64,000 bases of DNA from Octopus vulgaris (Eukaryota). Positions within the stretch are counted from its first letter, which is position 1. The number at the start of each line of letters is the position of its first letter. Of the stretch, positions 45,490 to 55,991 are shown piece after piece. The translations under genes were made by a program, and so were the position numbers. The notes under the pieces were generated by a model. It was not told the origin of the DNA. It searched no databases and saw only the letters and a program-made list of their open reading frames with translations. The stretch lies in NCBI GenBank assembly GCA_951406725.2, contig OX597818.1, positions 29,822,001 to 29,886,000 of the forward strand. The letters are read 5' to 3'.

Positions 45490-45791
45490 TCAGCTGCTTA
45501 CTTTGGTTGAAGAACTTTGATTGCTTAGAGTGGCATTCCAAATCTTCACTTCCTCTCCTATTGGCCCTTCACGCCTTTTGTCTTGTGGTCGGTCAGTATG
45601 TGGGATTCCAAACATAGCTTCACCTAAGTTCTCACTCAGTTCAGCAAGAACAGAAGGTTCATTGTAATGGGTCACAGCTTGAGCCATTGCTCTGGCACGT
45701 TTCTCGGGTAAACTACTTTTAAAGATACCAGAGCCAACAAACACACCATCAACTCCAAGTTGCATCAACAATGAAACATCAGCTGGAGTAG
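45490..45791 (-). CDS. pdxS: PLP synthase synthase-subunit (PdxS/SNZ/PDX1), last exon
   Basis: TTTCAG acceptor, then (A)[59 protein letters not shown]...* in phase 1. Confidence 0.95.
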
Positions 45792-46024
45792 CTGAAATAA
45801 ACAAAATATATTTTTCACTGGATTAGTAAATATCACTAACAGTTGATATTACATGGAAGATAACATAAAAAGTTACAAAAAAATAAATATTAGCTGGAGT
45901 GATCTTATTCTTGGGTCTGATTAATTTTACTTCAACAGACCTCAAGTATAGATGTAGCCAAGTAAATACTTGACACCACCATAATTCAAGCACTTTAGAT
46001 ATGCAAGATATACAATTCTAATGT

Positions 46025-46375
46025 GAAGGTGCATGGCTCAGTGGTTAGCTCACTGGGCTCACAATCATGAGGTAGCAAACCTGATTCTCAGACTGGGCTG
46101 GGTGTTGTGTTCTTGAGCAAGACACTTTATTTCACATTGCTCCAGTTCACTTAGCTGCAGAAATGAGTTGCAACATCACAGGTGCCAAGCTGTACTGGCC
46201 TTTGCTTTGCCTTGGATAACATCGGTGGCATGGAAAGGGGAGGCTGGTATGCATGGACAACTGCTAGTCTTCCAAAAAAACAACTTTGTCCGGACTTGTG
46301 CCTTGGAGGGGAACTTTCTCGGTGCGATCCCATGGTCTTCATGACCAAAGAGGGTCTTTACTTTTACCCTTACCT
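46025..46375 (+). mobile_element. tRNA-derived SINE (family C) in a pdxS intron
   Basis: Head GGTGCATGGCTCAGTGGTTAG, central GTTGTGTTCTTGAGCAAGACACTTTA and a (CTTTAC)-like tail. Confidence 0.65.
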
Positions 46376-46646
46376 TACAATCCTAATACAAATGTCCAAG
46401 CACTTATCATAATACTTTATATTGTAGGCATGCTATAACTTGGTAAATGGAAAATATGTGAAAAAGAGTAAGATGTTTTGTTTAGTGAGAATTGGCTGCT
46501 GCATTTAACAAAAAAGGTGACTATATACAATACAGACATGTTCAATGTGAGTGTCCATGCCAAATATCTGAGAGGTAGATCCTATAATTAGAGCTTATCA
46601 CAACAATGAATAACAGTATAGAATTGTATGAAAACACTAGACTTAC

Positions 46647-46829
46647 CAATGCCACCAGCAGCAAAATTTACCACTGGAAGTCGACCCATTTCAGCAGTTC
46701 TCCGCAACAGTTCTATTGGAACTTGTAGCTTTTTAGCATATTCATAAAGTTCTGTTGAGTCCATAGCTTGAGCAGTTCTAATTTCACGATTGATAGTACG
46801 AGCATGTCTTACAGCTTCAGAGACATCAC
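46647..46829 (-). CDS. pdxS: PdxS/SNZ exon (183 nt)
   Basis: TGCAG|(G)DVSEAVRHARTINREI...GRLPVVNFAAGGI|GTAAGT, phase 1-1. Confidence 0.95.
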
Positions 46830-48194
46830 CTGCAAAGCACAAAGAAAAAGGAAAAGTTTGGAAATAATATCTTAATAATATATACAGCATATTTTGGGTA
46901 GTGAGTTGACTGATGAATTTTGTAATATTGAAATGAGAGACAAAATATTGACACTAGCAAAATCTGAGTAAAGTGTTCTGAGTTCAAATCCTGCTGGAGT
47001 TAAATAGTATTTGTCCATTTGACTTCTAAATAAATCAGCACTTATAACTTATCTAAAACTTCTTTTCTGCCAACAGAAATATATTGATTTCTTCATCTTC
47101 CTGTTTATTTTAAAGAGCTTAATTGAAATCAACTTTTATATCTTAGTCAAGGAAGAAAAAGTATTGCTTATGACCTTATGCAGAGCCTCTGAGAATAGTA
47201 AAGAAAGGGTGGATGCCTGGTCCAAATGCTTGAAAGAGAGATAGCTTTGCTAAATGACACCTAAGGGCTAGGTTGTAGTGTTAAATAGGACAAAAGATTA
47301 GGGCTACCACCCAACTAAAACTATACCCTTGTGGAATAATTTTTAGCTGTGATTTCAATAGTATACAACAAATTAAAACTAATTCTTCTCCTACATAACA
47401 TGCTAAAAGTATTGTAAGTCAGCTTCTCAAATTAACTGAGAAAAAAGCTTAACTAAAAAAAAAAAAAAGAGTTCAGTACTTTGCAATATTTCTATCTTTT
47501 AATACTATATACTAAAAGAAATTGCATTTTATGTATATGAAATATATATAATTATTAAAATAGGATATATATTTGCAAATTGCAAGCCAGTTGATATTGT
47601 ATTGGTTAACTATAAAAAATATATTTAGTAATTATTTAAATTAGTTACATAGGAACAAATATATTCTGTAATTAGAATAAATATATTTTTTAAATGAAAA
47701 ATCAATCAAATACTTTAAGTTAGTCAAAGACAACCTACAGCAGGTGTGACTTTCTGAATGACATACCTGATGAAATTTTTGAAATTTTTATAGTAGTGTA
47801 GCTCACTTCTTGAAAAAAAAGTTGCCTGTGCCTAGTTTAAAAAGGAGTTCTGTAATTTAATTAGATGTAAAAAACATTAAAATATAAGTGTATCATCATC
47901 ATCTTGTTTACCATTTTTGCAGTACAGCATTATATTCCAAATTTTGCTTAAATTAGAATTTTACACCTTAACACCCTTCCCATCATCAATCACAGAGTGG
48001 AGTGGGTGCAGAGTACCAATAAGGTGCTCTTACAAGAAATGGTCCTGTGTTTTGCACAAAACAATTACTATTCTGAAAAATGAATGTATTTCATATATAG
48101 GAAAAACAATATAGTAGAAGTTATATAAAGAAGAAAATAGAGCAGAATATCTGATGATCTGTAGTGCACCTGAACATTGTATACAATAAACTTG

Positions 48195-48636
48195 CTCTTA
48201 CCAGCTTTGCTTCCTAGTCACATGGTTGCAAGTTTAGTTCTACTGCATAACACCTTGGGCAAGTATCTTCTACAATAGCCAAGGGTTAACCAAAGCCTTG
48301 TGAGTAGATTTGGTAAATGGTAACCAGAAGAAGCCCATTGTATGTATGTGTATTTAAATAAGTATGTGTGTGAGTATGTATGTATATGTACATATCTGAG
48401 TGTGTGTGTGTGTGTTCCCTTGACTAGACATCATGATGATTGTAAATCATCACACAAACAAGTGTGTTCATTTCCAGTCTGTGAAAAACATGTCTAACAA
48501 TGGGAAAATAATACCCTGCTTGGAAACAGAAGGTTGGTAACAGGAAAGACATTCAACAATAGAAAATCTGCCTCAACAAATTCCATCTGACCCATTCAAG
48601 CATGGAAAAGTGGACATTAAATGATGATGATGATGA
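48195..48636 (+). mobile_element. SINE with RTE-type 3' tail
   Basis: ACCTTGGGCAAGT.TCTTCTAC.ATAGCC core, ending in CATGGAAAAGTGGACATTAAA(TGA)n. Confidence 0.65.
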
Positions 48637-53650: not shown

Positions 53651-53833
53651 ATTAGTCTGATGCCATATTTTTGTGCATTCAAATGCAATTAAGATCAATG
53701 ATACTTTTCATCTCTTGCAGGTTGATAAAATAAATTTCAAATTATTGCTTTGCTCTTACATTATAGCAGATCTTAAGCAATAGAAAGAATTCATTATTGT
53801 CAACAAAAAACAAATAAAAAAAGACAGACTTAC

Positions 53834-53934
53834 TCCAGCTTCTTCTGCGATACATGCTTCTTCTGCATTGGTAACATCCATAATGATTCCTCCTTTAGCC
53901 ATTTGTGCCATACCAGCTTTGACCTTGAAGGTTC
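53834..53934 (-). CDS. pdxS: PdxS/SNZ exon (101 nt) with the catalytic Asp
   Basis: CTAG|(G)[39 protein letters not shown], phase 1-0. Confidence 0.95.
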
Positions 53935-54314
53935 CTAGTATAAAGTAATAAAAACATATATTTTACTAATGTTATAAGGAGAATGACTTGAATCTAGCAA
54001 AAATAATATGTAAGCCTATAAATTAAATGAAACTGAAATAGGTTACATAAGTAAGCATTATGTTAAAGATTAAATGTATCATATTCAATTCTAACATCAA
54101 AAAAAGAATACAAATTTGTAAGGATAAAAGAAAGCAAGAGAAAGTGAGAAAACAGAGAAGTTAAAGTTAACCACAGTAACATTTCAACATAAAACAGAGA
54201 AAAACTAAATACTGCAAAGCAGTTAGATCATCATCTTAAAATTTCTGCCAGTCAACTGATTCTAGATTAATATTTAATATTATCAAACTTTTAAATGAAA
54301 CTTTCTGACTTTTC

Positions 54315-55300
54315 ATCATCATCATCGTTTAACGTCCGCATTCCAAGCTAGCATGGGTTGGACAATTTGACTGAGGACTGGTGAACCAGATGGCTGCACC
54401 AGGTTCCAATCTGATCTGGCAGAGTTTCTACAGCTGGATGCCCTTCCTAACGCCAACCACTCTGAGAGTGTAGTGGGTGCTTTTACATGCCATTGGCATG
54501 AGGACCAGTCAAGCAGTACTGGCAATGTTTTTTTCATGTGTCACTAGCACAAGTGCTAGTAAGGTGACACTGGTAATGATCACGTTCAAATGGTGCTTTT
54601 TACATGCCACTGGCATGGAAGCCAGTCAGCTGCTCTGGCAATGATCATGCTCGGATGGTGCTCTTAGTGCTCCACTAGCACGGATGCCAGTCATCGAATT
54701 TGATTTTGATTTCACTTACCTCAACAGATTTTCGCAAGCAGAGTTTAGTGTCCAATGAAGGAAAGGTACGCATAAGTGGGCTGGTTACACCCCTGGCATA
54801 GGCCACGGATATGGTCTCACTTGGCTTGCCAGGTCTTCTCAAGCACAGCATATTTCCAAAGGTCTTGGTCACTAGTCATTGCCTCAGTGAGGCCTCATGT
54901 TCCCAGGTCTTTCTGGGTCTACCTCTTCCACAGGTTCCCTCAACCGCTAGGATGTGGCACTTTTTCACACGGCTATCCTCATTCATTCTCGCTACATGGC
55001 CATACCAGCACAGTCGTCTTTCTTGCACACCACATCTGATGCTTCTCAGGTCCAACTTTTCTCTCAAGGTACTTAGACTCTGTCAAGTATGCACACTGAC
55101 ATTACACATCCATCGGAGCATACTGGCTTTGTTCCTTGCGAGCTTACGCTTGTCCTCAGCAATCACGGCCCATGTTTCGCTGCCATGTAACATGGCTGTT
55201 CATACACATGCATCATACAGTCTACCTTTTACTCTGAGCAAGAGGCCCTTTGTCACCAGCAGAGGTAAGAGCTCTCTGAACTTTGCCCAGGCTATTCTTA
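54315..55300 (-). mobile_element. RTE-clade LINE 3' fragment
   Basis: LREKLDLRSIRCGVQERRLCWYGHVARMNEDSRVKKC..L.VEGTCGRGRPRKTW and an (ATG)n tail. Confidence 0.85.
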
Positions 55301-55928
55301 TTATTTCAGTGAAGATATTTTCCCAAGGAAAACTCTCACAAACTATGGCAATAATTCTTGCTGGTTCAGTTCAGGTAACCTAAGTATATAGAGATTATCA
55401 CCATAAACAGTGAGCACATTCTACAGTTATTTTCATACCCTTGAGGTCTGAATGAGGTTTCTGTACTTATATATTATTTTTATTCTGTATTGTGAGGATT
55501 GGTCAATACAGCAGAAAGGTTTGGATTTACTGTTCACACAATCTGCTCTCATATTGTATTTTAAGATGGCTAGTAGGAGAAAAAAAATTATAAACTACTG
55601 TTTTAATATAACCAACATTTCTTTTCCTTTAGCATTATTACATTATATTACAGAGAATAATTTATATTTTGATTCCTTTTTTGATTGATACAAGCTAAAC
55701 TATGCTAATGAGTTATGTTGAAAATGTTAGCAGATTGCAACTAGCTATAATATGAAGTGGTAACTGTAACCCTAAATTCAGAAGTTAAGCAATTTTAATT
55801 TTTCAACAAGTTAGCCTTGTAAAAAGAATTAAAATATCACAACTGTTGTAGCTGTGAACAGGTTGTGTCAAAAAGTCAACAGTTTTGTGAAGTCATACAT
55901 TATAAGATAATTAAAGTGTAAAACACAC

Positions 55929-55991
55929 CAGTTTTCCTTCCTGCAGTTTCATCCTTCACAGCTGTTAAATTGGTAACAACAACATCAGGAT
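55929..55991 (-). CDS. pdxS: Probable upstream PdxS exon (63 nt), N-terminal extension
   Basis: TTTTACTTATAG|xPDVVVTNLTAVKDETAGRKT-G|GTGTGT, phase 1-1. It joins in frame to the next exon (KT-G-TFKVK) and contains no in-frame ATG. Confidence 0.7.

What the first reader, a model, noticed from the sequence alone, without database searches (positions are those of the whole stretch)
45490..55991. Intact, intron-rich vitamin B6 synthase (PdxS/SNZ/PDX1) gene in an animal, probably an octopus
Seen: seven minus-strand GT-AG exons splice in frame (998 nt) into a complete PdxS fold. The residues equivalent to Bacillus subtilis PdxS Asp24 (IMDV), Lys81 (MAKARIGH) and Lys149 (IRTKGE) and the phosphate-binding GSGIFKS motif are all present. 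Its introns carry the same host SINE and RTE families as the rest of the window, so it is not microbial contamination. Known: vertebrates, insects and nematode models lack de novo B6 synthesis, and PDX1-like genes are reported patchily in invertebrates (e.g. sponge SNZERR). Inference: this animal may make PLP de novo by the DXP-independent route, through either ancestral retention or an old horizontal transfer.
Basis: partly seen in the sequence, partly recalled or inferred. Interest (0 to 1): 0.85.

Follow-up and report, generated by a model that had tools for sequence, protein, structure and literature searches.

The report
Octopus vitamin B6 synthase gene
This is a real, spliced octopus gene for the core enzyme of vitamin B6 synthesis, already named in public databases and shared with other molluscs and members of five more animal phyla, so octopuses likely make their own B6 with a gene probably inherited from the first animals, although no assay has shown this yet.

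Summary
Seven GT-AG exons (998 nt) splice into a protein identical at 331 of 331 residues to a RefSeq/GenBank Octopus sinensis/vulgaris protein already named PLP synthase subunit SNZERR. The start-codon exon lies outside the window. All six junctions appear in 3 of 3 RNA-like runs and in none of the DNA-like run. All 8 mapped B. subtilis PdxS active-site residues are kept. Named orthologs occur in 20 mollusc species of four classes, and in sponges, cnidarians, annelids, copepods and tunicates. They form one animal clade (100/99), a separate prokaryote-to-mollusc transfer is rejected (AU p=0.0005), and three intron positions recur in other animals. Ancestral retention is therefore the best reading. 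Genome-inferred host B6 synthesis in a mollusc is already in print (PMC7895826), with PDX1 and PDX2 on one contig. Octopus PDX2 could not be tested. One unexpected point: mollusc and cnidarian PDX1 group together (100/97) and share an N-terminal motif and loss of the usual C-terminal lid, against the species tree. The species-tree alternative is not rejected (AU p=0.056 and 0.083). The scan had no earlier finding on this. Known gene, low-to-modest interest.

The parts
55929..55991 (-). First coding exon inside the window (residues 13-33 of the 344-aa protein; carries the VTNL motif). The ATG exon lies upstream, outside the window.
   Evidence: Sequence; joint 55928/53933 in X1, X2, X8; residues 1-13 of P0121 not found in the window
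53834..53934 (-). Coding exon with helix alphaN region (K47 = B. subtilis K18) and catalytic D53 (= D24)
52612..52692 (-). Coding exon, residues 68-94
52205..52325 (-). Coding exon with K110 (= K81, R5P Schiff base), D128 (= D99, Pdx2 contact) and E134 (= E105). The intron after it matches breakpoints in copepod-like and jellyfish-like fragments.
49055..49201 (-). Coding exon with P2-site H144, R166, R167 (= H115, R137, R138) and K178 (= K149). The intron after it matches a copepod-like breakpoint.
46647..46829 (-). Coding exon with K216 (= K187). The intron after it matches oyster, jellyfish-like and copepod-like breakpoints.
45490..45791 (-). Last coding exon: GSGIFKS phosphate loop, Q282 (Pdx2 contact), remodelled mollusc-type C-terminal tail (W[NDE][AS]T[LI] motif), stop codon
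45302..45489 (-). 3' UTR as far as the X8 contig reaches; AATAAA begins at 45325
   Evidence: table 8
54312..55340 (-). Decayed retroelement/SINE remnants in the 1994-nt intron, shared with other places in the window (73% over 1041 nt with 14130-15154). The RTE label is recalled from the look of the translation, not tested.
53173..53650 (.). 159-bp x 3.0 tandem repeat (99% matches) inside the 1141-nt intron

Best explanation
[quoted passage not shown] Mechanism by homology: a TIM-barrel oligomer binds R5P as a Schiff base on K110 with D53 (site P1), takes up ammonia, adds G3P and completes PLP on K178 at site P2 (H144, R166, R167, K216). Shown here: gene structure, splicing, residue conservation, tree position. 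Inferred: activity, oligomer, PDX2 partner, flux in the animal.
For: 331 of 331 residues are identical to P0121 (CAI9722621.1 O. vulgaris, XP_029636357.1 O. sinensis, named SNZERR), and 329 of 331 to O. bimaculoides. P0121 passes both NCBIfam PdxS equivalog cut-offs (472.9 vs 395; 460 vs 438.45), and its best PDB matches are Arabidopsis-type PDX1.3/1.1 at E about 6e-125. D24, K81, E105, H115, R137, R138, K149 and K187 (roles from PMC3024981, passages) are all kept in octopus and invariant in 42 of 42 aligned rows. Of 5 Pdx2-contact residues listed in PMC11237949 (passages), 3 are identical, 1 is conservative and 1 is changed. Splicing was seen in 3 of 3 RNA-like runs, and both exonic differences listed are synonymous. 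All named animals form one clade, 100/99 and 100/97 on the core alone, with octopus beside Argonauta and Sepia. Molluscs plus prokaryotes as one clade is rejected, p-AU 0.0005. Three of 6 intron positions recur in exon-sized fragments of other animals. In the snail Gigantopelta, SNZERR (K06215) and pdx2 (K08681) lie on one contig three gene models apart, and the PDX1 protein was detected in the proteome (one peptide in each of 3 samples; PMC7895826 supplementary files 6 and 10).
Against: No assay of a mollusc PDX1 was found in 10 literature searches. Octopus PDX2 is untested: no genome was held, there is no PdxT match in the window, and the PdxT profile search listed no named animal among 120 rows. 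The C-terminal lid, which B. subtilis needs for catalysis (PMC3024981), is remodelled in molluscs and cnidarians. R317 matches R288 only by ungapped extension beyond the aligned stretch and is not conserved across molluscs. The gene tree puts molluscs with cnidarians, not annelids, so simple one-to-one vertical descent within animals is not shown. Outgroup sampling is thin: one named plant, no named fungi or choanoflagellates.
Confidence: 0.82

Rival explanations
1. Octopus has lost PDX2, and its PDX1 works alone on free ammonia.
For: No PdxT-like exon in the window (best E 0.16 among 3393 frames). Bacterial and Plasmodium Pdx1 make PLP from ammonia alone (PMC11237949, passages). One of 5 listed Pdx2 contacts is changed.
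Against: The other four contacts are kept or conservative. Gigantopelta, whose PDX1 is in the same mollusc clade, has pdx2 on the same contig. The window holds only 8 kb upstream of the gene, less than its own first intron.
Confidence: 0.07
2. The protein is a weakly active or non-catalytic PDX1 (like plant PDX1.2), kept for another role, because its C-terminal lid is remodelled.
For: The N-C...[RK]E[SA] tail found in 12 of 12 sponge, annelid, copepod and tunicate rows is absent from 26 of 26 mollusc and cnidarian rows. The lid is required for catalysis in B. subtilis (PMC3024981).
Against: All 8 active-site residues are invariant in 19 molluscs and 7 cnidarians. The score against catalytic PDX1.3 is 420 bits, against pseudoenzyme PDX1.2 313 bits. 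R288A only lowers efficiency, and kcat for PLP is unchanged (PMC3024981 Table 1).
Confidence: 0.07
3. The gene entered molluscs or cephalopods by its own horizontal transfer from bacteria, as reported for cyst nematodes.
For: The closest prokaryotic relatives (Chloroflexota) reach 70-76% identity. A bacterial transfer of this pathway into Heterodera is cited in PMC5167767 and PMC4901422 (passages; the original paper was not read).
Against: Molluscs plus prokaryotes rejected, p-AU 0.0005. Animal clade 100/99. Introns are shared with copepod-like and jellyfish-like fragments. PdxS is simply very conserved: PDB PdxS/PDX1 chains of plants and bacteria all score E below 1e-102.
Confidence: 0.03
4. 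Contamination, misassembly or a pseudogene.
For: None found.
Against: Six spliced introns, host repeats in introns, animal neighbours (CEP44), identical protein in two named Octopus records.
Confidence: 0.01

Closest known systems
Octopus sinensis XP_029636357.1 / O. vulgaris CAI9722621.1 (PLP synthase subunit SNZERR); O. bimaculoides XP_052824270.1
   Same: 331 of 331 and 329 of 331 identical residues over the part the window encodes
   Different: Nothing; the window lacks the ATG exon. The annotation is automatic, not experimental.
Gigantopelta aegis host PDX1 + PDX2 (Lan et al. 2021, PMC7895826)
   Same: Mollusc host genome with SNZERR and pdx2; paper states B6 can be made only by the host; same clade in my trees
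   Different: Genome/proteome inference in a snail. Fig. 5 itself was not seen, so whether octopus is among its 18 other molluscan taxa is unknown. Gigantopelta lacks the W[NDE][AS]TL tail motif.
Suberites domuncula SNZERR (Q8WPW2; Seack et al. 2001, seen as reference only)
   Same: 212 of 305 identical, same catalytic residues, same animal clade
   Different: The sponge keeps the ancestral N-C...W..RES tail and lacks the VTNL motif.
Bacillus subtilis PdxS (2NV2) / Arabidopsis PDX1.3 (5LNR), DXP-independent PLP synthase
   Same: Ungapped match over 282 residues; P1 and P2 site residues kept
   Different: Longer N-terminal arm, remodelled and longer C-terminal tail; spliceosomal introns
Cyst nematode SNZ/SNO (Heterodera, Globodera; Craig et al. 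2008, cited in PMC4901422 and PMC5167767)
   Same: An animal with a PdxS-type B6 gene
   Different: Reported as a bacterial transfer; the octopus gene instead sits in a broad animal clade. Nematode sequences were not in my trees.

Membership tests
PdxS/PDX1/SNZ (PF01680, TIGR00343) | Passes curated family and equivalog cut-offs | tested here: met
   PF01680 351.5 bits vs 27; PRK04180 472.9 vs 395, TIGR00343 460 vs 438.45, run on P0121
PdxS/PDX1/SNZ (PF01680, TIGR00343) | P1-site D24 and K81 | tested here: met
   D53, K110 by constant offset 29 to 2NV2
PdxS/PDX1/SNZ (PF01680, TIGR00343) | K149, E105 and P2-site H115, R137, R138, K187 | tested here: met
   K178, E134, H144, R166, R167, K216
PdxS/PDX1/SNZ (PF01680, TIGR00343) | C-terminal lid with R288 | tested here: inconclusive
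   R317 falls at the position by ungapped extension only; tail remodelled and not column-conserved in molluscs
PdxS/PDX1/SNZ (PF01680, TIGR00343) | TIM-barrel fold and hexamer/dodecamer | tested here: inconclusive
   Single-sequence model unusable, pLDDT 37.7; fold inferred from E about 6e-125 matches to solved PDX1
PLP synthase complex (PDX1 + PDX2) | PDX2/PdxT glutaminase in the same genome | tested here: inconclusive
   No genome held; none in window; present in Gigantopelta per PMC7895826 supplement
PLP synthase complex (PDX1 + PDX2) | Pdx2-contact residues on PDX1 | tested here: met
   K47, D128, Q282 identical; K37 for R; A46 for Q (residue list from PMC11237949)
PLP synthase complex (PDX1 + PDX2) | PLP formation from R5P, G3P and ammonia or glutamine | not testable with these tools
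   Needs an enzyme assay or complementation
PDX1.2-type pseudoenzyme | Loss of catalytic residues (recalled: D24 among them) | tested here: not met
   All 8 residues kept; lower score to PDX1.2 than to PDX1.3
Lineage-specific bacterial transfer (cyst-nematode type) | Nests with prokaryotic sequences, apart from other animals | tested here: not met
   p-AU 0.0005; animal clade 100/99

The most novel reading that the evidence does not exclude
Molluscs and cnidarians share a second, undescribed animal PDX1 subtype of common origin, with an N-terminal V[TS]NL arm, N160D/N185D/V281A and a replaced C-terminal lid. It arose either by a duplication before the cnidarian-bilaterian split with reciprocal loss or, in the boldest form, by an ancient animal-to-animal transfer between cnidarians and the mollusc ancestor that displaced the native gene. 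It would be an active B6 synthase that closes its active site differently from all solved PDX1 structures.
Probability: 0.45. Interest if true: 0.5.

Novelty: already known. Interest (0 to 1): 0.27.

Why it matters
Reviews and papers still state flatly that animals cannot make vitamin B6 (PMC7954711, PMC7891054, passages). This locus is a clean, expressed example of a pathway that many marine invertebrates kept, and it would matter for cephalopod nutrition and for host-symbiont vitamin budgets. It is not news, though: the gene is annotated and the capacity has been inferred for molluscs. What remains open and easy to test is whether any mollusc PDX1 is active, and why mollusc and cnidarian PDX1 share a remodelled lid against the species tree.

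Tried and rejected
No whole genome is held for this window, so PDX2 and the ATG exon could not be sought genome-wide. A Chloroflexota PdxT profile limited to proteins of 215 residues or more listed no named animal among the 120 rows shown of 7936 hits; the named rows were Chloroflexota, unassigned PdxT and one plant. This is uninformative about octopus. A PdxT HMM and tblastn on the window found nothing, while the PdxS positive control found 6 of 7 exons. A metagenome scan with a sponge-like PDX1, meant to fetch a linked animal PDX2, did not return that contig. The single-sequence AlphaFold model was unusable and no fold search was run on it. No listed run is on record as RNA, so 'RNA' rests on the contigs skipping the six introns; depth was not used as expression level. 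My recollection that Schistosoma has Snz1/Sno1 was not borne out (PMC7891054 says animals are auxotrophic). Tanaka et al. 2005 is not held, and Helliwell et al. 2013 on vitamin pathway loss is recalled only. Either may already describe the animal distribution or the tree shape. PMC10192322, PMC13212745 (passages; its 5 supplements gave 0 hits), PMC8789280, PMC11817969, PMC6879607 and PMC6232779 gave nothing on host PDX1. Molluscs plus annelids as one clade was not rejected (p-AU 0.056; 0.083 core only), so the cnidarian-mollusc grouping is not established. dN/dS was not computed because no orthologous DNA was held. Earlier scan findings had no bearing.
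Full report
Observation. The seven exons named in the parts list lie on the minus strand, total 998 nt, have AG acceptors and GT donors with matching phases, and give a 331-residue frame ending at TGA 45492-45490. Five exons hit Pfam SOR_SNZ on their own, in profile order. The first in-window exon begins at an acceptor in phase 1, so the start codon is elsewhere. 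The first 13 residues of the annotated protein are not found in six frames of the window (best 5 of 13), so that exon lies more than 8 kb upstream, beyond position 64000.

Identity. A search with the last exon returned the O. bimaculoides protein first (99%). [quoted passage not shown] The gene is thus already annotated under the right name. P0121 passes both NCBIfam PdxS equivalog cut-offs.

Expression. Of 24 listed runs I laid 4. In X1, X2 and X8 (three studies, two organism labels; RNA by the tool's guess) contigs join all 6 of 6 predicted junctions, skipping 855, 2225, 3003, 286, 1141 and 1994 nt with CT..AC ends on the plus strand. The DNA-like run X15 shows 0 of 6 (about 76% read, some joints not counted). 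One X8 contig runs to 45302, just past an AATAAA at 45325. The two exonic differences among the rows shown are synonymous. Contig depth cannot give an expression level.

Host context. Repeats in 3 of 6 introns recur elsewhere in the window. A CEP44 ORF lies convergent at 38919-40289. An exon at 8968-9126 encodes a UBA-like start (Pfam UBA_4 E 0.18; atlas leads) that I recognise from memory as C6orf106/ILRUN; its later exons were not found. In Gigantopelta, C6orf106 is listed five rows from SNZERR on the same contig (PMC7895826 supplementary file 6). This suggests conserved microsynteny but rests on a recalled identification.

Catalytic anatomy. The match to B. subtilis PdxS (2NV2) runs from query 32-313 to chain 3-284, a constant offset of 29. 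At that offset D24, K81, E105, H115, R137, R138, K149 and K187 (roles from PMC3024981, passages) are D53, K110, E134, H144, R166, R167, K178 and K216, and all eight are invariant in 42 of 42 aligned rows. Of five Pdx1 residues that contact Pdx2 in S. aureus (PMC11237949, passages), three are identical, one is R to K and one Q to A. The likely chemistry is the textbook one: R5P bound on K110, ammonia from PDX2, G3P added, PLP finished on K178 at site P2. None of this was assayed.

Distribution and origin. The 120 rows shown (of 7933 hits) include 20 named mollusc species in 21 rows, from cephalopods, a chiton, gastropods and bivalves, plus cnidarians, annelids and sponges. add copepods, tunicates, a jellyfish, reef corals and more sponges and annelids: six phyla in all. 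Only top rows are shown, so absence of other phyla means nothing. An IQ-TREE tree of 81 rows chosen from the session's sequences (bootstrap not fully settled) puts all named animals in one clade at 100/99, sister to two unnamed transcript-like proteins, with octopus beside Argonauta and Sepia inside molluscs (99/93). A 46-row tree without the termini keeps the animal clade at 100/97. Forcing molluscs with the 7 prokaryote rows is rejected (p-AU 0.0005). Outgroups are mostly Chloroflexota and one plant; no named fungi or choanoflagellates were available. Exon-sized gene calls among cluster members give intron evidence. The octopus introns after codons 134, 183 and 244 match breakpoints in copepod-like fragments (P0593, P0596), those after 134 and 244 in jellyfish-like fragments (P0576, P0573, P0577, P0574, P0579), and that after 244 in oyster fragments (P0134, P0137 and others). 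That is 3 of 6 introns; the others were not covered, and the copepod-like and jellyfish-like labels come from tree position. The gene therefore probably had these introns before cnidarians and bilaterians split.

Partner. PDX2 could not be tested in octopus (see Tried and rejected). In the snail Gigantopelta, whose PDX1 falls in the same clade, pdx2 (K08681) and SNZERR (K06215) are on contig ctg152 with three gene models between them, and one SNZERR peptide was seen in each of 3 proteome samples (PMC7895826 supplementary files 6 and 10). The main text says vitamin B6 can be made only by the host and compares 18 other molluscan taxa (passages; the figure itself was not seen).

An unexpected pattern. 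Molluscs and cnidarians group together at 100/97 and 98/86 on the core alone, where anthozoans even fall among molluscs without a star. They share residues at 8 sites, against 0 for molluscs plus annelids under the same rule. V[TS]NL occurs in the N-terminal arm of 16 of 19 molluscs and 6 of 7 cnidarians, and in 0 of 12 sponges, annelids, copepods and tunicates. The N-C...[RK]E[SA] tail is in those 12 of 12 and in 0 of 26 molluscs and cnidarians. Cnidarians stop short, and 17 of 19 molluscs carry a longer tail with W[NDE][AS]T[LI]. Because the tail is a lid needed for catalysis in B. subtilis (PMC3024981), this is the main caveat on activity. Against it, molluscs plus annelids is not rejected (p-AU 0.056 and 0.083), the site count used only 4 annelids, and coupled convergence after loss of the lid is possible. 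My rough odds: hidden paralogy 0.33, animal-to-animal transfer 0.12, convergence or artefact the rest.

Literature. Ten searches of the open library found no enzyme assay of a mollusc PDX1 and no mention of this subtype. Subscription papers are mostly absent, and Tanaka 2005, Seack 2001 and Craig 2008 were seen only as reference entries. PMC7954711 lists 'some sponges' as having the pathway while saying animals cannot make B6, and PMC7891054 calls animals auxotrophic (passages).

Verdict. A real, expressed, intact, already annotated PDX1, best explained by ancestral retention, and likely active. Interest 0.27, held up by the untested biochemistry and the cnidarian-mollusc subtype.

Noticed in passing
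window 38919-40289 (+): Single 456-codon stop-to-stop ORF with a CEP44 domain (PF15007, E 3.8e-25), convergent with PDX1 about 5.2 kb away; no introns apparent within the ORF.
   Followed up: partly
window 8968-9126 (+): ATG-initiated exon ending at a GT donor, UBA-like; recalled as C6orf106/ILRUN exon 1. Later exons were not found, and an assembly gap of 100 N lies at 20561-20660. C6orf106 is near PDX1 in Gigantopelta too.
   Followed up: partly
window 13684-14181 (+), 35982-36494 (+), 60422-63634 (+): Mariner/Mos1 HTH remnant and reverse-transcriptase fragments; a decayed LINE occupies the far part of PDX1's first intron.
   Followed up: no
window 53173-53650: Near-perfect 159-bp x 3 tandem repeat in a PDX1 intron.
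   Followed up: no
P0021 (Batillaria, 980 aa) and P0612 (Porites evermanni, 507 aa): PDX1 joined to a Myb/SANT-like domain, and a doubled SOR_SNZ domain; probably gene-model artefacts.
   Followed up: partly
L001-L080 (Chloroflexota pdxS-pdxT loci): Caldilineaceae and other Chloroflexota PdxS are the closest prokaryotic matches (70-76%), but they do not group with animals in the trees.
   Followed up: partly
P0445 (JGI, 310 aa, contig up to 7307 nt): A sponge-clade PDX1 called whole on a metagenome contig, sister to Halisarca; its contig was not retrieved, so intronless host gene versus symbiont copy is open.
   Followed up: partly
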